A stretch of 5,233 nt of DNA. Source: a virus (lineage: Duplodnaviria; Heunggongvirae; Uroviricota; Caudoviricetes). Location of the stretch: the IMG/VR virus record IMGVR_UViG_2663762627_000003; one strand, 5' to 3'. Under the pieces are notes generated by a model. The model had not been told where the DNA came from. It saw nothing but the letters and a program-made list of their open reading frames with translations, and did not search any database. This document shows positions 1-5,233 of this stretch, piece by piece. Made by a program: the position numbers and the translations under genes. Position 1 is the first letter of the stretch. Each line of letters begins with the position of its first letter.

Positions 1-75
1 TACACTCTGCAGCTGAGCAGTTCCTCTAACTACGACAACCTGAACGGTTGGGCGNNGNNNGNGNNNNGACNGTAA
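1..75 (+). CDS. Possible 3' end of an unidentified upstream CDS, interrupted by ambiguous bases
   Basis: Frame 1 is open from the window edge (YTLQLSSSSNYDNLNGWA...) through the N-containing block to a TAA at 73-75. This 54-nt stretch is 29/54 G+C, unlike the AT-rich cargo to its right. No motif recognised; the N block prevents a clean reading. Confidence 0.2.
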   Translation, partial: YTLQLSSSSNYDNLNGWAXXXXXX

Positions 76-288
76 ATTATGACGGGAAACAATTTACGTA
101 TCCGGTTGCTGATGAGTGGCCGGGATTTTTACAAACAGAAATTGTTTTTGGGATTAATAAGTTATCTCTAAGCTAAGACGCTCAAAGCAAGAGATTATTT
201 TACTGTACGTAGCCATCTGGAATTGTGGCTGTGTTAAAACGCTCGAGATTTTTTGGATATCCAGTTATACTCCGCTTAGAAATCATTC

Positions 289-293
289 GGAGA
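289..293 (+). promoter_or_regulatory. Shine-Dalgarno sequence (GGAGA) for the methyltransferase gene
   Basis: GGAGA sits 5-6 nt upstream of the ATG at 299. No convincing -35/-10 pair could be identified by eye further upstream. Confidence 0.5.
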
Positions 294-298
294 CTAAG

Positions 299-1345
299 AT
301 GGCGGTAAAAGTTGTTGATCTTTTTTGCGGTGCTGGCGGTTTAACGCACGGCTTACATTTGGCCGGATTGGACGTTGTCGCAGGCATTGATTTAGAAGGT
401 GAGTGTCGTGTTGCATACGAAAGCAATAATGATGCACTTTTTATTGAAAAAGATATATCTCTGGTGACAAAAGATGAAATCGAAAATCTTTTTGAAGGGG
501 CAAGTGTTAAAGTATTGGCCGGATGTGCACCTTGTCAGCCATTTTCTAAATATACTCAGGGAAAAGATAAAAAAAATGATAAAAAGTGGCCGTTATTATA
601 TGAGTTTGAACGTTTAATAAAAGACACGAAACCAGAAATAGTTACAATGGAAAACGTTCCTGATGTGACAAAACATTCTGTCTATGATGATTTTTATAAT
701 ACCTTAATAGCATTGGGTTATTATGTTTGGGCAAATAAGATTGAATGTGTAGATTTTGAGGTTCCGCAAAACAGAGTGAGGCATGTATTACTCGCATCTA
801 AATTTGCGCCGATTTCTCTGATGAAACCACAAACATCGGTAAAGCTGACAGTTAGGGATTGCATTGGTAATTTACCTTCGATTGAAGCGGGACAAGCAGA
901 TCCAAAAGACCCTCTCCATAAGGCGAGTAGATTGAGTGAAATTAATCTCAAACGTATTCTACATTCAAAACCGGGGGGGACATGGAGGGATTGGCCTGCT
1001 GAATTAATCGCTTCATGTCATGCCAAGAAAAGTGGGCAGGGATATGCCAGTGTTTATGGTCGTATGTCTTGGGATAAACCGAGTCCAACGATAACTACAC
1101 TTTGTTATGGTTTTGGTAATGGACGTTTTGGTCATCCCGAGCAGCATCGTGCAATCTCACTTAGGGAAGCAGCATTACTTCAAACGTTTCCTGTTACATA
1201 TTCATTTACCCAACCGGGCGAGCCGATCAAAATGAAAAATGTCGGGCGTATGATAGGTAATGCTGTTCCTGTAAACTTAGGTAAAGCGATTGGTCTTTCA
1301 ATAGTACATCATTTGAAAGAGTTTCACCCCGCCGCTCTTAAATAA
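299..1345 (+). CDS. DNA (cytosine-5)-methyltransferase, Dcm/C5-MTase family, 348 aa
   Basis: Canonical C5-MTase motifs in the correct order: motif I DLFCGAGG (AdoMet binding, nt 323-340), motif IV GCAPCQPFS with catalytic Cys79 (codon 533-535), motif VI ENV (650-658), motif VIII QNRVR, motif X GNAVP near the C-terminus. The variable region between VIII and IX is consistent with a target-recognition domain. Confidence 0.9.
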   Translation: MAVKVVDLFCGAGGLTHGLHLAGLDVVAGIDLEGECRVAYESNNDALFIEKDISLVTKDEIENLFEGASVKVLAGCAPCQPFSKYTQGKDKKNDKKWPLLYEFERLIKDTKPEIVTMENVPDVTKHSVYDDFYNTLIALGYYVWANKIECVDFEVPQNRVRHVLLASKFAPISLMKPQTSVKLTVRDCIGNLPSIEAGQADPKDPLHKASRLSEINLKRILHSKPGGTWRDWPAELIASCHAKKSGQGYASVYGRMSWDKPSPTITTLCYGFGNGRFGHPEQHRAISLREAALLQTFPVTYSFTQPGEPIKMKNVGRMIGNAVPVNLGKAIGLSIVHHLKEFHPAALK

Positions 1346-2043
1346 GCCTGAGTATCAAGATAAGTTTGTATATTTTCAAGGATGCAGTTGAGATAATGAA
1401 AAACTTCATCCTTCATTTCTGTTAGTGTATCAATAGATGTATCTCTGCCTTTGTTTCTAAATGATTCAGAACCATGAGCAAGGTCGTTTCTGGCCTTTTT
1501 TATTGGAAGTAAATTGCAACCATTTCGCGTTATTTCTGAATCTGTATCTGCTGAGAAGCCATATTTTTCAGCGACTTCTCTAATTTTTCTAGCATCAACA
1601 TTTCCAGAAAATAACGGATTTTTATTTGATTGGATAAGTTTTTTGTGAGCGTTTAGCCACTCTTTAAATATAACTTTTGCAATGTTCCCTTGTGAGAAAT
1701 CTATTTTCCCATTTGGTGATTGTAAACTATGAAATGCTACTCTTGTAAGGTTTTCATTTACAGTGTCTGCACATAATGATTCATTAGACATTAAAACATT
1801 ATGAATGTCTTCTATTGCATTGGAAATGGTTGCTTCAATGAGATTGTACAATATAATAAATGCATTAGCCTTTAAAATATGAGTCATATCAATATCAATG
1901 GGTTGTTGTATAGGCGCATCGCTTGTATTCTCTTTATAGACTAGAGATGGTTTTTTGTTTATTAGTAACTGAATGAATGAGAAGTATTCATTAATATCTT
2001 GCATTCTTTCTTGGAAAAGAATTTTACTTGTCATCTCCTCCAT
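1324..2043 (-). CDS. HEPN-like protein (resembles MAE_28990/MAE_18760-type HEPN nuclease family), 239 aa
   Basis: C-terminal KKARNDLAHG contains an R-x4-H HEPN-type motif (R185 at codon 1489-1491, H190 at 1474-1476). The protein is predominantly helical in character and lies 10 nt downstream of, and co-oriented with, the DUF262 gene. A GAGG about 9 nt upstream of the ATG is a plausible RBS. The family call is from memory of motif pattern and is not verified by search. Confidence 0.6.
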   Translation of the reverse strand: MEEMTSKILFQERMQDINEYFSFIQLLINKKPSLVYKENTSDAPIQQPIDIDMTHILKANAFIILYNLIEATISNAIEDIHNVLMSNESLCADTVNENLTRVAFHSLQSPNGKIDFSQGNIAKVIFKEWLNAHKKLIQSNKNPLFSGNVDARKIREVAEKYGFSADTDSEITRNGCNLLPIKKARNDLAHGSESFRNKGRDTSIDTLTEMKDEVFHYLNCILENIQTYLDTQAYLRAAG

Positions 2044-2053
2044 TTACTTGGCC

Positions 2054-3199
2054 TCACTCCATATTTTCATCTTCATTTTCATCTTCGTCGACAATATTTT
2101 CTGGAATGTCTTTCCCAAGCAACTTGTTTTTTACATATTCAATGCGTGCTTTAACTTTGGGTTTAGAGTTGCTGGCATCTGAACGTGTGTGCGTGATAAA
2201 CTCTTTCGAGTTGATCCAGTCATCAATATTTTTAGGAACTAAATTGGGTTCTTCCTCTAGTGCTAATGTTGCACCGACGGCAAGAGCTTCGAAACGAATC
2301 CTAGGAACAGTGGTGGCGTTTTTCACCTTTCTGAAACCATTTGGGAAATGTGTATTAATGAATTGGCACATTTTATGAAATTTTTCCGCCAGCATAGCTG
2401 CGTTTTCATCTGTATATTCGGCATTTTTACGTTTTAAATAGGTTGTAAGAAATTCATCAACGCTTTTTCTGAAATCAAGATATTCTTCAGTGTAGGCAAA
2501 GTAGCGTAGTGCCAATTCTGGATATTCAGAGCGACGTTTTCTTGCATCTCCCAAAGGACAGATGCTATGAAATAGAGGATCTTCGGAAATTTCATTGATA
2601 AATGCAAGGAATGGCCCATCATGGCTACCTTGCCGTTGTTCCATTGTTGTTAGTTTTTTTCCGCCAGTATTCAGACGGTCAAAAATTTCCCTTCTTGTCT
2701 CTTCGTCACAATGTTCTGTAAGTTCAATCATTCGAATAGTTTTTCTATCAAAACGTAGGCGACGGGGAGTACTGAAATCAGAATATTTAAAACCATTGGC
2801 TGTGACTAATTTCTGCAGGCCTTCAAGAGTTAGTTTGTTATTGGTAAATTGGTGTAGGGTTCTTATTCGTTGGCTACCGTCAACAATTTCAAGTCTACCT
2901 TCATTTTCACCTGAACCAATATCGGCAACGAATATGTAAGGTATAGGAAGATTTAAAAGCAGAGATTCAATGAAACGGGATTTTTGCTTGTTGTTCCAGA
3001 TAAACTCCCTTTGGTAGTCAGGTATAAAAAGCTCTGCCTCATCTTCTTCAAGACCATTCTGAAATTTGTCCACAATAACACTTATCGGGAACTCACGTAT
3101 TTCATGGTCAGTGATTTTTTGCATTTCAACTATGCTTTGATCTAAAAGCTCCTTTTCTTCTTTAGTTTTTGGGGTATGTTCTGCTTTTTTTCTCGCCAT
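2054..3199 (-). CDS. DUF262 / ParB-like (GmrS-type DGQQR motif) domain protein, 381 aa
   Basis: N-terminal region has LFIPDYQREFIW (the YQR..W signature of DUF262) and EIVDGSQR (a DGQQR-type motif; codons 2867-2881). No His-Me/HNH (DUF1524-like) motif is recognisable in the C-terminal half. The protein ends in an acidic tail, DEDENEDENME. Confidence 0.85.
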   Translation of the reverse strand: MARKKAEHTPKTKEEKELLDQSIVEMQKITDHEIREFPISVIVDKFQNGLEEDEAELFIPDYQREFIWNNKQKSRFIESLLLNLPIPYIFVADIGSGENEGRLEIVDGSQRIRTLHQFTNNKLTLEGLQKLVTANGFKYSDFSTPRRLRFDRKTIRMIELTEHCDEETRREIFDRLNTGGKKLTTMEQRQGSHDGPFLAFINEISEDPLFHSICPLGDARKRRSEYPELALRYFAYTEEYLDFRKSVDEFLTTYLKRKNAEYTDENAAMLAEKFHKMCQFINTHFPNGFRKVKNATTVPRIRFEALAVGATLALEEEPNLVPKNIDDWINSKEFITHTRSDASNSKPKVKARIEYVKNKLLGKDIPENIVDEDENEDENME

Positions 3200-3220
3200 G
3201 AGCTTATTATCCTACTATGC

Positions 3221-3315
3221 GTGTGATTGCATTAAATTGCATGTTAAACAAAAGCATAATCTATATCAGTCAATCAGCCAGTGGCAAGGTGTTGTGATTA
3301 CAATGCAACTGCATT
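3221..3315. promoter_or_regulatory. Putative promoter/operator region of the DUF262-HEPN operon, with TTGCAT direct repeats and an AATGCA-N2-TGCATT inverted repeat
   Basis: TTGCAT occurs at 3227-3232 and 3237-3242, 10 bp apart. A perfect 6-bp-arm inverted repeat AATGCAacTGCATT lies at 3302-3315. Both segments are preceded by TGTGATT. They sit between cos and the start codon at 3199. Confidence 0.3.
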
Positions 3316-3338
3316 AGAACCGACTCATGAAGCGGGCG

Positions 3339-3357
3339 GGCGAGGCGGGGAAAGCAC
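3339..3357. other. cos: cos site: 19-nt cohesive-end sequence of P2/186/P4 type
   Basis: GGCGAGGCGGGGAAAGCAC matches the P2-family cohesive end as I recall it. Its position just downstream of the portal gene end is what is expected for P2 gene order (cos-Q-P). Confidence 0.65.
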
Positions 3358-3499
3358 TGCGCGCTGGCGGTGGTGCTGATTTTATTTTTTCAGCGTCTGA
3401 GCGCGTCGTGAAGGCGTTTACTTGGCCTGCTGGGGCGTTGGTGTGTCTGCGGGATTTTTTGTGCGGTGATGAGCGTGTGAGGGCGTGATGACGGGGTGT

Positions 3500-3521
3500 A
3501 AAAAAGCCGCCCGCAGGCGGC
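3500..3521 (-). terminator. Rho-independent terminator downstream of the portal gene
   Basis: On the minus strand, 5 nt after the Q stop codon, a 6-bp G/C stem (3516-3521 pairing with 3506-3511) with a 4-nt loop (3512-3515) is followed by a run of six U (3500-3505). Confidence 0.7.
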
Positions 3522-3526
3522 GATGT

Positions 3527-4561
3527 TCAGCCGTTGTCAGTGTCCAGTGAGTAGTTTTTAAAGCGGATGACCTCCTGACCGAGCCAGCCGTTTATCTCGC
3601 GGATCCTGTCCTGTAACGGGATAAGTTCATTGCGGACAAAGACCTTTGCCACTTTCTCAATATCACCCAGCGACCCGACGTTCTCCGGCTTGCCGCCCAT
3701 CAACTGAAAGGGGATGCGGTGTGCGTCCAGCAGGTCAGCGGCGCTGGCTTTTTTGATATTAAAAAAATCGTCCTTCGTCGCCACTTCACTGAGCGGGATA
3801 ATTTTAATGCCGTCGGCTTTCCCCTGTGGGGCATAGAGAAACAGGTTTTTAAAGTTGTTGCGGCCTTTCGACTTCACCATGTTTTCGCGGAGCATTTCGA
3901 TATCGTTGCGATCCTGCACGGCATCAGTGACGTACATGATATATCCGGCATGAGCGCCGTTTTCGTAATACTTGCGGCGGAACAGCGTGGCCGACTCATT
4001 CAGCCAGGCAGAATTAAGGGCGCTGAGATATTCCGGCAGACCGTACAGCTCCTGATTAATATCCGGCTCCAGCAGGTGAAACACGGAGCCGGGCGCGAAA
4101 GGTGTCGGCTCGTTAAAGGACGGCACCCACCAGTAAACATCCTCTTCCACACCACGGCGGGTATATTTTGCCGGTGAGGTTTCCAGTCTGATGACCTTAC
4201 CGGTGGTGCTGTAACGCTTTTCCAGAAACGCATTACCGAACACCAGAAAATCCAGCACAAAGCGGCTGAAATCCTGCTGGGAAAGCCACGGATGCGGGAT
4301 AAATGTCGAGGCCAGAATATTGCGTTTGACGTAAATCGGCGAGCTGTGATGCACGGCAGCACGCAGGCTTTTCGCCAGACCGGTAAAGCTGACCGGCGGC
4401 TCATACCATCTGCCGTTACTGATGCACTCGACGTAATCCAGAATGTCACGGCGGTCGAGTACCGGCACCGGCTCACCAAAGGTGAATGCCTCCATTTTCG
4501 GGGCGCTGGCGGTCATTTTTTTTGCCGCAGGTTGCGGTGTTTTCCCTTTTTTCTTGCTCAT
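3527..4561 (-). CDS. Q: Capsid portal protein, P2 gpQ-like, 344 aa
   Basis: Full-length ORF in a GC-rich backbone, with a lysine-rich N-terminus (MSKKKGKTPQPAAKK...). Length and sequence are consistent with my recollection of P2 gpQ. Its start overlaps the stop of the upstream terminase gene (ATGA), and it sits next to cos. Confidence 0.85.
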   Translation of the reverse strand: MSKKKGKTPQPAAKKMTASAPKMEAFTFGEPVPVLDRRDILDYVECISNGRWYEPPVSFTGLAKSLRAAVHHSSPIYVKRNILASTFIPHPWLSQQDFSRFVLDFLVFGNAFLEKRYSTTGKVIRLETSPAKYTRRGVEEDVYWWVPSFNEPTPFAPGSVFHLLEPDINQELYGLPEYLSALNSAWLNESATLFRRKYYENGAHAGYIMYVTDAVQDRNDIEMLRENMVKSKGRNNFKNLFLYAPQGKADGIKIIPLSEVATKDDFFNIKKASAADLLDAHRIPFQLMGGKPENVGSLGDIEKVAKVFVRNELIPLQDRIREINGWLGQEVIRFKNYSLDTDNG

Positions 4562-5233
4562 CAGTAAAACTCCAGAATGGTGGATGTCAGCGGGGTGCTG
4601 ATACCGGCGGTGAGTGGCTCATTTAACAGGGCGTGCATGGTCGCCCAGGCGAGGTCGGCGTGGCTGGCTTCCTCGCTGCGGCTGGCCTCATAGGTGGCGC
4701 TGCGTCCGCTGCTGGTCATGGTCTTGCGGATAGCCATAAACGAGCTGGTGATGTCGGTGGCGCTGACGTCATATTCCAGACAGCCACGGCGGATGACGTC
4801 TTTTGCCTTGAGCACCATTGCGGTTTTCATTTCCGGCGTGTAGCGGATGTCGCGCGCGGCGGGATAGAACGAGCGCACGAGCTGGAACACGCCGACACCG
4901 AGGCCGGTGGCATCAATACCGATGTATTCGACGTTGTATTTTTCGGTGAGTTTGCGGATGGATTCAGCCTGAGTGGCAAAGTCCATGCCTTTCCACTGGT
5001 GACGCTCAAGTATTCTGAATTTGCCACCGGCCACCACCGGCGGTGCCAGCACCACGCATCCGGCGCTGTCGCCACGGTGTGACGGGTCGTAACCAATCCA
5101 TACCGGGCGGGAGCCGAACGGATTTGCGGCAAACGGCGCATAGTCTTCCCATTCTTCCAGCGTGTCGACCATGCAGCGTTGCAGCTCCTCGAACGGGAAC
5201 ACCGACGCCTTGTCGTCAACAAATTCACACATG
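4561..5233 (-). CDS. P: Terminase large subunit, P2 gpP-like; C-terminal (nuclease-domain) portion only, 5' end lies beyond the window
   Basis: The reading frame is open to the window edge on the minus strand, so the Met at 5232 need not be the true start. Content includes an acidic GIDATGLG segment typical of terminase RNase-H-like nuclease domains. Position immediately upstream of, and translationally coupled to, the portal gene matches P2 P-Q order. Confidence 0.8.
   Translation of the reverse strand, partial: MCEFVDDKASVFPFEELQRCMVDTLEEWEDYAPFAANPFGSRPVWIGYDPSHRGDSAGCVVLAPPVVAGGKFRILERHQWKGMDFATQAESIRKLTEKYNVEYIGIDATGLGVGVFQLVRSFYPAARDIRYTPEMKTAMVLKAKDVIRRGCLEYDVSATDITSSFMAIRKTMTSSGRSATYEASRSEEASHADLAWATMHALLNEPLTAGISTPLTSTILEFY

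What the first reader, a model, noticed from the sequence alone, without database searches (positions are those of the whole stretch)
76..3338. AT-rich cargo island precisely abutting cos in a P2-like genome, consistent with the cos-adjacent defence hotspot of P2-like prophages
Seen in sequence: composition shifts sharply at about 3338/3339 (sampled 60-nt stretches: 19/60 G+C at 1381-1440 against 34/60 at 4561-4620). The 54 nt left of the N block are 29/54 G+C. Established knowledge: in P2 the region between the replication genes and cos carries the non-essential old and tin genes, and in P2-like prophages this position is a reported hypervariable hotspot for anti-phage systems. Inference: the MTase/HEPN/DUF262 cassette is an exchanged cargo at that hotspot, acquired from a lower-GC donor.
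Basis: partly seen in the sequence, partly recalled or inferred. Interest (0 to 1): 0.6.

Follow-up and report, generated by a model that had tools for sequence, protein, structure and literature searches.

The report
Defence gene cargo in P2 prophage hotspot
This is an AT-rich, three-gene cassette (DNA methylase, DNA-sensing DUF262 protein, HEPN RNase) sitting in the already well-known swap-in "defence hotspot" of a P2-like phage, so the location is ordinary, although nobody has yet tested how this cassette works.

Summary
The window is a P2-like phage, 99.9% identical to Peduovirus P24B2. The order is gpA 3' end, C5-methyltransferase, MAE_28990-family HEPN, NsnA-like DUF262 protein, cos, portal Q, terminase P.

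The hotspot reading is correct and already published. Rousset 2022 and Vassallo 2022 describe the hotspot, and Rousset's Table S5A lists this exact gene arrangement.

Three details are wrong:
- Homology breakpoints are 127/128, inside gpA, and about 3302, which is 36 nt left of the cos nick. They are not 76 and 3338.
- The 54 nt left of the N block are E. coli damX, not phage backbone.
- A "lower-GC donor" cannot be inferred. The cassette is AT-rich relative to its flanks in 82 of 82 loci across phyla.

The triad is a conserved mobile module. DUF262 directly precedes HEPN in 86 of 86 loci. A single orthologous methyltransferase accompanies the pair in every non-cyanobacterial locus.

The most likely mechanism (about 0.5, inferred) is R-M-like. 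Methylation marks self DNA, the DUF262 NTPase senses foreign DNA, and the HEPN RNase is the effector. This has not been tested.

The parts
68..176 (+). 3' end of P2 gene A (replication endonuclease). Positions 68-127 are conserved backbone. Positions 128-176 encode a variant-specific C-terminal tail (LQTEIVFGINKLSLS*).
   Evidence: Annotated as replication endonuclease in NC_049387 and NZ_CP059907. Alignment of six P2-like loci shows identity through ...FTYPVADEWPGF and then divergence.
101..124 (+). Conserved hairpin followed by a T-run inside the gpA 3' end, immediately before the left exchange junction (127/128).
   Evidence: Terminator-like site. The sequence is conserved in 5 of 6 aligned loci. 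No function has been tested.
128..3302 (.). Exchangeable AT-rich cargo segment (3175 bp, 37% G+C) as defined by homology breakpoints. The three-gene cassette proper is shared with a diverged E. coli copy from position 232 onward.
243..271 (+). Sigma-70-like promoter candidate upstream of the methyltransferase (TCGAGA-17-TATACT).
   Evidence: this is a consensus match only, and the number of such sites does not exceed the shuffled expectation. It lies inside the stretch shared with the diverged cassette L007, which starts at window 232.
299..1345 (+). C5 cytosine DNA methyltransferase, 348 aa, with all catalytic motifs (FCGAGG, PC79Q, ENV, QNRVR, RE..Q.FP, GNAVP). A G7 run lies at 972-978.
   Evidence: Pfam PF00145 at 1.8e-54 and TIGR00675 at 2.9e-36. 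Motifs read from the translation. P24B2 carries one extra G in the run, which frameshifts its copy.
1324..2043 (-). MAE_28990-family HEPN protein (239 aa, or 236 aa from the Met at 2034, which has a GGAGGAG Shine-Dalgarno). The R185-x4-H190 motif is invariant. Its 3' end overlaps the convergent MTase by 22 nt.
2054..3199 (-). NsnA-like DUF262 (ParB-type NTPase) protein, 381 aa. It has an N-terminal DUF262 domain with QRxxxW, DGSQR (107-111) and FxxxN motifs, a helical C-terminal domain, an acidic disordered tail and no DUF1524 nuclease domain.
   Evidence: Pfam PF03235 at 4.7e-28. PADLOC NsnA at 4.9e-55 over the full length and PD-T4-2_A at 9.2e-35. Motifs invariant in 28 homologs. AlphaFold2 pLDDT 81. 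Foldseek top hit BrxU, then CTP-binding ParB/Noc.
3258..3287 (-). Sigma-70-like promoter candidate for the DUF262-HEPN operon (TTGCCA-18-TAGATT).
   Evidence: consensus match only. In P2 the old-tin mRNA also starts in the equivalent cos-proximal spacer (annotation).
3303..3338 (.). Conserved cos-left flank (backbone), ATGCAACTGCATTAGAACCGACTCATGAAGCGGGCG, lying between the cargo and the cos nick.
   Evidence: Conserved in six loci with different cargos. Phage hits start at 3302-3305.
3339..3357 (.). P2-type 19-nt cohesive end (cos), GGCGAGGCGGGGAAAGCAC.
   Evidence: Aligns to the annotated cosR of NC_001895 at 33575-33593. The P24B2 record ends at window 3338.
3527..4561 (-). Portal protein gpQ (backbone).
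   Evidence: TIGR01540 at 2.5e-74 and PF04860. 97-98% nucleotide identity to P2-like phages.
4561..5232 (-). C-terminal part of the large terminase gpP (backbone); the gene runs off the window.
   Evidence: PF17289 at 5.2e-48. Annotation.

Best explanation
Identity (near certain, at least 0.95). Window 128-3302 is the variable cargo of the gpA-cos-gpQ hotspot of a P2-like temperate phage. Cargos are exchanged by recombination within the conserved flanks, which are the gpA 3' end with its hairpin on the left and the 36-nt cos-left flank on the right. No transposon-type terminal repeats are present.

The cargo is one copy of a widely distributed mobile triad. It consists of a DUF262-HEPN two-gene operon plus a dedicated C5 cytosine methyltransferase.

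Mechanism (inferred, about 0.5). The triad works as a restriction-modification-like, methylation-coupled defence in four steps.
(1) The MTase methylates one fixed DNA motif on the lysogen's chromosome and on the prophage, which marks them as self.
(2) The DUF262 protein is a ParB-type NTPase with a helical DNA-binding domain and no nuclease domain. It scans DNA and distinguishes incoming DNA that lacks the mark. An SspE-like variant, in which the protein must be licensed by the self mark, is also possible.
(3) NTP-dependent switching of the sensor releases or activates the HEPN partner.
(4) The HEPN domain, with its intact Rx4H site, cleaves RNA and stops phage gene expression, possibly at the cost of the cell.

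What is shown: gene content, intact motifs, predicted folds, strict DUF262-HEPN linkage and the linkage to one orthologous MTase family. What is inferred: methylation as the self mark, the sensor role of DUF262, the RNase effector role of HEPN, and anti-phage activity itself.
For: Hotspot.
- The flanks are P2 backbone and the interior differs between relatives at the same junctions.
- The literature describes this hotspot and lists this arrangement.

Triad as a unit.
- DUF262 lies immediately upstream of HEPN on the same strand in 86 of 86 loci.
- The adjacent MTase is a single orthologous family, 49-89% identical to the window's. Its target-recognition region (64% mean identity) is at least as conserved as the catalytic core (53-56%).
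- The MTase occurs in two gene orders: 25 loci convergent downstream of HEPN and 5 upstream on the same strand.
- It is present in every non-cyanobacterial locus: Escherichia, Klebsiella, Kluyvera, Buttiauxella, Vibrio, Thalassotalea, Parabeggiatoa, Runella and Cytophagales, Pyrinomonadaceae, Desulfuromonadales. It is also present in an unrelated phage lineage, the Moraxella Mcat prophages.

Proteins.
- Catalytic motifs are intact and invariant in all three.
- The HEPN fold is confirmed. The DUF262 model resembles BrxU and ParB/Noc, with no nuclease domain.

Precedents.
- DUF262 acts as an NTP-dependent DNA-modification sensor in GmrSD, BrxU and SspE (PMC12065111 and PMC10952713).
- The two-gene relative PD-T4-2 (DUF262 + HEPN) defends E. 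coli against T4 (PMC9519451).
Against: - No experiment on this triad was found in the searched library.
- 49 of 79 species-level loci lack the MTase within 5 kb, and 25 of them have a full-length DUF262 with intact motifs. These loci are all cyanobacterial, apart from one unclassified MAG. Most are syntenic next to clpB, so they represent few independent events. I could not check whether those genomes carry the methylase elsewhere.
- The phage record P24B2 has a frameshifted MTase (G8 instead of G7) with intact DUF262 and HEPN. This could be a tolerated knockout, phase variation or a homopolymer sequencing error.
- PD-T4-2 functions without a methylase.
- Characterised DUF262 enzymes are mostly modification-dependent, which is the opposite polarity.
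- The methylated motif is unknown.
Confidence: 0.55

Rival explanations
1. Type IV-like reading. The DUF262-HEPN pair is a self-sufficient, modification-dependent sensor and effector, like PD-T4-2, GmrSD or BrxU, that recognises modified phage DNA such as hmC or glc-hmC. The methyltransferase would have a separate job. It could protect the P2 genome from host or competitor restriction systems, or act as an epigenetic or anti-restriction accessory.
For: - Characterised DUF262 proteins sense modified DNA.
- PD-T4-2 has no MTase and protects against T4.
- Rousset 2022 files a Vibrio 'DUF262 + DUF262/DndB + HEPN_MAE_28990' locus under Type-IV restriction.
- MTase-less loci with intact motifs exist.
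- P24B2 has a frameshifted MTase.
Against: - An unrelated accessory would not be expected to be one orthologous family with a conserved target-recognition region. Nor would it be expected in two gene orders, across at least five phyla and two phage lineages, and in every non-cyanobacterial locus.
- A 5mC writer next to a sensor of modified cytosine risks self-targeting.
- The HEPN here gives no hit to PD-T4-2_B.
Confidence: 0.25
2. Addiction or stabilisation module rather than defence. The triad would behave like a toxin-antitoxin or post-segregational-killing R-M unit. Loss of the prophage dilutes methylation and unleashes the HEPN toxin, and any anti-phage effect is secondary.
For: - The module is found on mobile elements and is AT-rich everywhere.
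Against: - It sits at a locus whose tested cargos are overwhelmingly anti-phage.
- Chromosomal cyanobacterial copies are vertically inherited without the MTase, which a pure addiction module would not tolerate.
- This reading is not exclusive of the best explanation.
Confidence: 0.1
3. The composition step is an assembly artefact: a chimeric join of unrelated DNA rather than a real phage locus.
For: The window does contain one suspicious join, damX | N block | gpA at positions 1-72.
Against: The segment 68-5233 is colinear at 98.9-99.1% identity with three complete E. coli chromosomes, and 68-3338 is 99.9% identical to an isolated phage genome. The cargo itself is 99.9-100% identical in those chromosomes.
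Confidence: 0.01

Closest known systems
P2 hotspot #1 (gpA-cos-gpQ locus; old/tin in phage P2), described by Rousset et al. 2022 and Vassallo et al. 2022
   Same: Same position, same conserved flanks, similar cargo size (3.2 kb; Rousset gives a mean of 3.2 kb) and AT-rich content. [quoted passage not shown]
   Different: Nothing about the locus differs. This particular cargo was catalogued there, but it does not appear among the systems Rousset cloned and tested (file 3 has no DUF262 entry).
MAE_28990 HEPN / ParB / DNA-methylase operon (Anantharaman et al. 2013, Biol Direct 8:15, Table 1)
   Same: The same three components. The HEPN is of the same Pfam family (PF18737). The ParB-superfamily partner is adjacent and a DNA methylase is adjacent.
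   Different: That description is a one-line comparative-genomics note, with no mechanism, no experiment and no phage context.
PD-T4-2 (Vassallo et al. 2022; from ECOR65)
   Same: A DUF262 protein (PADLOC PD-T4-2_A, 9.2e-35) followed by a HEPN protein. Vassallo reports seven of the 21 systems in P2-like prophages, without naming which. PD-T4-2 is experimentally anti-T4.
   Different: PD-T4-2 spans only 1540 bp for both genes and has no methyltransferase. The window's HEPN is 239 aa and gives no hit to the PD-T4-2_B model. The window's DUF262 protein is closer to NsnA.
Menshen (NsnABC; Millman et al. 2022; Li et al. 2025)
   Same: The DUF262 protein matches NsnA over its full length (4.9e-55, residues 31-358 against profile positions 41-377 of 385). 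This corresponds to the ParB-DUF262 plus ParBDB-type architecture proposed to act as the sensor.
   Different: There is no NsnB ATPase and no NsnC effector. A HEPN protein and a methyltransferase are present instead.
GmrSD / BrxU / SspE (DUF262-DUF1524 enzymes) and SspABCD-SspE
   Same: An N-terminal DUF262 NTPase with conserved QRxxxW, DGxQR and FxxxN motifs. BrxU is the best structural match. In the Ssp system a DUF262 protein is likewise coupled to an adjacent self-modification module.
   Different: There is no DUF1524 His-Me nuclease domain. The effector is a separate HEPN protein, and the modification is predicted to be 5-methylcytosine rather than phosphorothioate.

Membership tests
P2-like gpA-cos-gpQ hotspot cargo | Lies between the replication endonuclease gpA and cos / portal gpQ of a P2-like genome | tested here: met
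   gpA 3' end at 68-176, cos at 3339-3357, Q at 3527-4561, P from 4561.
P2-like gpA-cos-gpQ hotspot cargo | Flanks are conserved while the interior differs among related phages at the same junctions | tested here: met
   Five other loci with four alternative cargos share junctions at window 127/128 and 3302-3306. Only 7 of 5426 E. coli genomes carry this cargo.
P2-like gpA-cos-gpQ hotspot cargo | Cargo confers anti-phage defence | not testable with these tools
   Domain content is defence-type. No experimental report was found.
MAE_28990 HEPN-ParB-methylase operon (Anantharaman 2013) | HEPN protein of the MAE_28990 family with an Rx4-6H motif | tested here: met
MAE_28990 HEPN-ParB-methylase operon (Anantharaman 2013) | Adjacent ParB-superfamily (DUF262) gene | tested here: met
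   There is a 10-nt gap between the two genes in the window. The adjacency holds in 86 of 86 loci.
MAE_28990 HEPN-ParB-methylase operon (Anantharaman 2013) | Adjacent DNA methylase gene | tested here: met
   C5 MTase at 299-1345. An orthologous MTase is adjacent in 30 of 79 species loci and in all non-cyanobacterial ones.
PD-T4-2 | Homolog of PD-T4-2_A (DUF262) | tested here: met
   PADLOC PDLC04027 at 9.2e-35, though NsnA scores higher.
PD-T4-2 | Homolog of PD-T4-2_B (short HEPN partner) | tested here: not met
   The 239-aa HEPN has no PADLOC family at E<=0.01. It shares only the weak Pfam RiboL-PSP HEPN signal (7.6e-07).
PD-T4-2 | Two-gene system without a modification gene | tested here: not met
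   A dedicated, co-inherited C5 MTase is present. PD-T4-2 spans 1540 bp with two CDSs.
Menshen (NsnABC) | NsnA-type ParB-DUF262 plus C-terminal DNA-binding domain | tested here: met
   PADLOC NsnA at 4.9e-55 over the full length. The model shows a helical C-terminal domain.
Menshen (NsnABC) | NsnB ATPase and NsnC effector encoded downstream | tested here: not met
   The cargo holds only an MTase and a HEPN gene besides DUF262, and no other ORF has such hits.
GmrSD / BrxU / SspE (Type IV, DUF262-DUF1524) | C-terminal DUF1524 His-Me (HNH-like) nuclease domain | tested here: not met
   Pfam finds only GmrSD_N on residues 52-190. Residues beyond 190 are all-helical in the model.
GmrSD / BrxU / SspE (Type IV, DUF262-DUF1524) | DUF262 motifs QRxxxW, DGxQR and FxxxN | tested here: met
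   Q63 R64 W68, D107 G108 S109 Q110 R111 and F173..N177 are invariant in 28 homologs. Motif definitions come from PMC12065111.
Classical Type II restriction-modification | Cognate methyltransferase with complete catalytic motifs | tested here: met
   PF00145 matched over the full length; motifs I, IV (PCQ), VI (ENV), VIII, IX and X are readable.
Classical Type II restriction-modification | Recognisable restriction endonuclease whose cleavage is blocked by the cognate methylation | not testable with these tools
   No REase-fold protein is present. There is only a weak PADLOC REase_II hit on the DUF262 N-domain (8.9e-07). Methylation sensitivity needs experiments.

The most novel reading that the evidence does not exclude
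The MTase-DUF262-HEPN triad may be an uncharacterised class of restriction-modification-like immunity. Self would be marked by 5-methylcytosine at a single family-wide conserved motif. The restriction arm would be a nuclease-less ParB-type NTPase sensor that switches on a trans-acting HEPN RNase, so that DNA methylation status is read out as RNA cleavage. A corollary is that cyanobacterial copies have dispensed with their own methylase because a resident genomic methylase supplies the mark.
Probability: 0.4. Interest if true: 0.6.

Novelty: already known. Interest (0 to 1): 0.3.

Why it matters
As a locus, this is a textbook example of the P2 cos-proximal defence hotspot and adds nothing new. 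Its value is as a clean, compact (about 3.1 kb), naturally phage-borne copy of a three-gene module. That module is conserved from Enterobacterales to cyanobacteria and has been known from comparative genomics since 2013, but I found no report of its mechanism being tested. If methylation-gated activation of a HEPN RNase by a DUF262 sensor were demonstrated, it would link R-M-type self-marking to abortive-infection-type RNA effectors. It would also help explain what DUF262 proteins that lack a nuclease domain (NsnA, PD-T4-2_A, DzbA) actually sense.

Tried and rejected
- Transposon or integron-type mobility of the cargo. No flanking direct or inverted repeats beyond chance were found, so exchange by flank homology is preferred.
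- RNA elements in the intergenic regions. There were no Rfam matches and no tRNA or tmRNA genes.
- Sequence search of the DUF262 and HEPN proteins against PDB. Nothing significant came up, apart from a borderline BrxU hit at E=0.85.
- Inferring MTase specificity from solved homologs. Only the catalytic motifs align, to DNMT1, M.HaeIII and M.HhaI, so no specificity can be assigned.
- Fine-scale co-phylogeny of the MTase with DUF262. Pearson r=0.94 is driven by two divergence clusters and Spearman is 0.32 (p=0.08). I claim only orthology at comparable divergence.
- Truncated DUF262 genes occur only in MTase-less loci: 20 of 49 against 0 of 30 by recount. The Fisher test as run on 22/24 gave p about 1e-6. 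All of these are syntenic Microcoleus-type loci, so they are not independent and I give this little weight.
- Locating the source contig through the damX/N-block junction in viral contigs. No match.
- Filing the cassette as Menshen, PD-T4-2 or GmrSD. Rejected because defining components are absent (see the membership table).

Full report
OBSERVATION

A 200-nt sliding profile stays at 29-45% from about 100 to 3300 and at 50-63% afterwards. The region 177-3302 is 37.4% G+C and 3303-5233 is 56.0%. The best single change-point is 3319, with near-equal likelihood between 3315 and 3332. The log-likelihood gain over a one-composition model is 84.3 nats, LRT p=2.5e-37. The contrast is strongest at third codon positions: GC3 is 0.24-0.30 in the three cargo genes and 0.66-0.73 in Q and P. 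The composition step is therefore real and far beyond chance.

WHAT THE WINDOW IS

Megablast places 68-3338 on Peduovirus P24B2 (NC_049387/LR595873) at 99.9% identity, ending exactly at the end of that linear record. It places 68-5233 on P2-like prophages in three complete E. coli chromosomes at 98.9-99.1%.

The annotation of those records and my own family searches give this order:
- gpA (replication endonuclease) 3' end, up to 176
- C5 cytosine methyltransferase, 299-1345 (+)
- MAE_28990-family HEPN protein, 1324-2043 (-)
- DUF262 protein, 2054-3199 (-)
- the 19-nt P2 cohesive end GGCGAGGCGGGGAAAGCAC, 3339-3357
- portal gpQ, 3527-4561 (-)
- terminase gpP, from 4561 (-)

In the E. coli 181.1 chromosome the whole prophage lies next to cpxP in the canonical P2 order int-C-cox-B-A-[cargo]-cos-Q-P-O-N.

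BOUNDARIES

I compared the window with five other P2-like loci. Four carry different cargo: P2 itself with orf91+tin+old, a DUF7380 gene, DUF3850 plus two hypotheticals, and an 873-bp stretch with no annotated gene. The fifth is a diverged copy of the same cassette preceded by DUF3850 and a hypothetical.

All of them lose similarity to the window at 127/128 and regain it at 3302-3306.

The left junction lies inside gpA. The protein is conserved through ...FTYPVADEWPGF and then ends in lineage-specific tails. Here the tail is 15 residues, LQTEIVFGINKLSLS. The junction sits directly after a conserved hairpin plus T-run at 101-124.

The right junction leaves 34-36 nt of conserved sequence (ATGCAACTGCATTA.AACCG....TGAAGCGGGCG) between the cargo and the cos nick.

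So the island is 128-3302, not 76-3338, and it does not abut cos base-for-base. The three-gene cassette proper is shared from position 232 with the diverged E. coli version, at 79% nucleotide identity over 232-5233 and about 74-76% within the cargo. No terminal direct or inverted repeats flank it. This fits exchange by recombination in the conserved flanks.

THE LEFT END OF THE WINDOW

The first 54 nt are not phage. They are 100% identical to the core gene damX, present in one copy in each of 5426 of 5426 E. coli genomes. This also explains why every genome matched the full window.

In the N block (55-71), the three called G's at 57, 61 and 63 sit exactly where damX has G and where damX and gpA agree. 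From 68 on the sequence is gpA. This looks like an assembly or masking artefact rather than an attachment site. I could not find the source contig.

Genuine backbone begins immediately to the right of the N block, so the hotspot reading survives.

THE HOTSPOT IS KNOWN

Rousset et al. [quoted passage not shown] Vassallo et al. 2022 (PMC9519451) call it P2 defence hotspot #1.

[quoted passage not shown] It was not among the systems they cloned (no DUF262 entry in the table of tested systems).

This cargo is rare. It occurs in 7 of 5426 complete E. coli genomes: three at 99.9-100% identity and four at about 75%. Among 50,697 phage records it occurs only in P24B2 and in nine Moraxella Mcat prophages.

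LOW G+C

Every cargo I examined at this hotspot is AT-rich (33-41%) against 51-57% backbone.

The DUF262-HEPN(-MTase) module is lower in G+C than its flanks in 82 of 82 loci from all taxa, with means of 36% against 45%. This includes hosts whose own flanks are only 36-47% G+C. AT-richness is thus a trait of the module and of this class of genes. The data do not identify a lower-GC donor.

THE CARGO AS A SYSTEM

The HEPN protein has 548 homologs at E<=1e-3. In 7 contigs found by exact-protein look-up and 79 species-representative genome loci, a DUF262 gene lies immediately upstream on the same strand in 86 of 86 cases. Spacing is typically 0-40 nt, or about 110-140 nt where the DUF262 gene is truncated.

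A C5 methyltransferase orthologous to the window's (49-89% identity) is adjacent in 30 of the 79 loci. It is convergent downstream of HEPN in 25 and upstream on the same strand in 5. Its target-recognition region (residues 175-285, 64% mean identity to the window) is at least as conserved as the catalytic parts (53-56%). This suggests one conserved methylation specificity across the family.

Every non-cyanobacterial locus has the methylase:
- Escherichia, Klebsiella, Kluyvera and Buttiauxella P2/186-like prophages
- a Vibrio cholerae chromosomal site between housekeeping genes
- Thalassotalea, Candidatus Parabeggiatoa, Runella, Cytophagales, Pyrinomonadaceae, Desulfuromonadales

The Moraxella prophages have it too: DUF262 at 45%, HEPN at 29% and MTase at 59% identity, in the same convergent layout.

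The 49 MTase-less loci are cyanobacterial, apart from one unclassified MAG. Most sit at one syntenic site next to clpB, so they reflect few events. In 20 of them the DUF262 gene is truncated to about 165 residues.

Anantharaman et al. [quoted passage not shown]

THE PROTEINS

The methyltransferase has all C5 motifs: FCGAGG, PC79Q, ENV, QNRVR, RE..Q.FP and GNAVP.

The DUF262 protein matches PADLOC NsnA over its full length (4.9e-55) and PD-T4-2_A at 9.2e-35. It keeps the QRxxxW, DGSQR and FxxxN motifs, which are invariant across 28 homologs (motif definitions from PMC12065111). It has no DUF1524 nuclease domain. In the AlphaFold2 model (pLDDT 81) a helical C-terminal domain follows the ParB-like domain. 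The best structural matches are BrxU and then CTP-binding ParB/Noc. Its C-terminal tail is disordered and acidic in most homologs.

MECHANISM

Shown: gene content, intact catalytic motifs, predicted folds, obligate DUF262-HEPN linkage, and linkage to one orthologous methylase family in two gene orders across phyla and two phage lineages.

Inferred, at about 0.5: the methylase marks self DNA at one motif. The nuclease-less DUF262 NTPase reads DNA modification state. Incoming DNA without the mark, or loss of licensing by the mark as in SspE, triggers the HEPN RNase and blocks phage development.

The main rival, at about 0.25, is a Type IV-like, modification-dependent DUF262-HEPN pair. Its model is PD-T4-2, which works without a methylase and protects against T4. 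In that reading the methylase has an unrelated role. Three observations favour the rival: MTase-less cyanobacterial loci with intact motifs, the G8 frameshift of the methylase in the P24B2 record, and the polarity of characterised DUF262 enzymes. Against it stand the single-family methylase with its conserved recognition region and the universal presence of the methylase outside cyanobacteria.

An addiction-module reading (about 0.1) is compatible with either. I found no experimental study of the triad.

CLASSIFICATION

The cassette is a member of the P2 hotspot cargo set and of the MAE_28990-HEPN/ParB/methylase operon type.
- It is not Menshen, because NsnB and NsnC are absent.
- It is not PD-T4-2, because there is no PD-T4-2_B match and a methylase is present.
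- It is not a GmrSD, BrxU or SspE enzyme, because there is no DUF1524 domain.

PADLOC v2.0.0 models would not call it a complete system.

VERDICT

The finding is a correct recognition of a published hotspot carrying an already catalogued gene arrangement. The boundaries are misplaced, the left flank is misidentified, and the donor inference cannot be supported. As a locus it is ordinary. What remains of interest is that this conserved three-gene module is still mechanistically untested.

Noticed in passing
window 1-54: This stretch is 100% identical to the E. coli core gene damX (SPOR-domain region, YTLQLSSSSNYDNLNGWA). It is single-copy in 5426 of 5426 complete genomes and is not phage sequence. 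P2-like prophages carrying this cargo sit next to cpxP in E. coli 181.1, not next to damX.
   Followed up: yes
window 55-71: The N block is interspersed with called bases (NNGNNNGNGNNNNGACN). The G's at 57, 61 and 63 are exactly where damX has G and where damX and gpA agree, and 68-70 follow gpA. It looks like a blended or masked join of two unrelated sequences (assembly or masking artefact). The source contig was not found in viral contigs.
   Followed up: partly
window 972-978 (G7 run inside the methyltransferase gene): Peduovirus P24B2 (NC_049387) has one extra G here. This frameshifts its methyltransferase, which is annotated there as two CDSs, while its DUF262 and HEPN genes are intact. 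The window and three E. coli prophages have the intact G7 form. It could be phase variation, a tolerated natural knockout or a homopolymer sequencing error.
   Followed up: partly
window 128-176: The last 16 codons of gpA lie beyond the exchange junction. Replication endonucleases of different P2-like phages therefore end in different cargo-linked C-terminal tails: LQTEIVFGINKLSLS here, STVMEWT in P2 and SLPI in another prophage.
   Followed up: partly
window 2054-2120 (C-terminus of the DUF262 protein): The tail is disordered and strongly acidic (…VDEDENEDENME; 10 D/E in the last 22 residues). Acidity, but not sequence, recurs in most homologs, with 7-12 D/E in enterobacterial and several other lineages. 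It might be an autoinhibitory or DNA-mimicking tail. This was not tested.
   Followed up: partly
L019, L022, L029, L033, L039-L041, L044, L046-L049 and others (Microcoleus loci, about 4350-4865): In 20 cyanobacterial loci the DUF262 gene upstream of an intact HEPN gene is shortened to roughly its N-terminal 165-175 residues. All of these loci lack the methyltransferase and are syntenic between clpB and a BrkB-like gene.
   Followed up: partly
L095 (Moraxella phage Mcat32, KR093656) 2318-5203: An unrelated temperate phage lineage, nine Moraxella catarrhalis Mcat prophages, carries the same DUF262 -> HEPN <- MTase triad. All three genes are annotated there as hypothetical proteins.
   Followed up: partly
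L006, L024-type records (e.g. NZ_CP116067.1 positions 1-2283; several hits at record position 2202): Several complete E. coli assemblies start their chromosome record at the P2 gpA (replication endonuclease) gene. They were presumably rotated by an automatic start-fixing tool that mistook it for a replication initiator.
   Followed up: no
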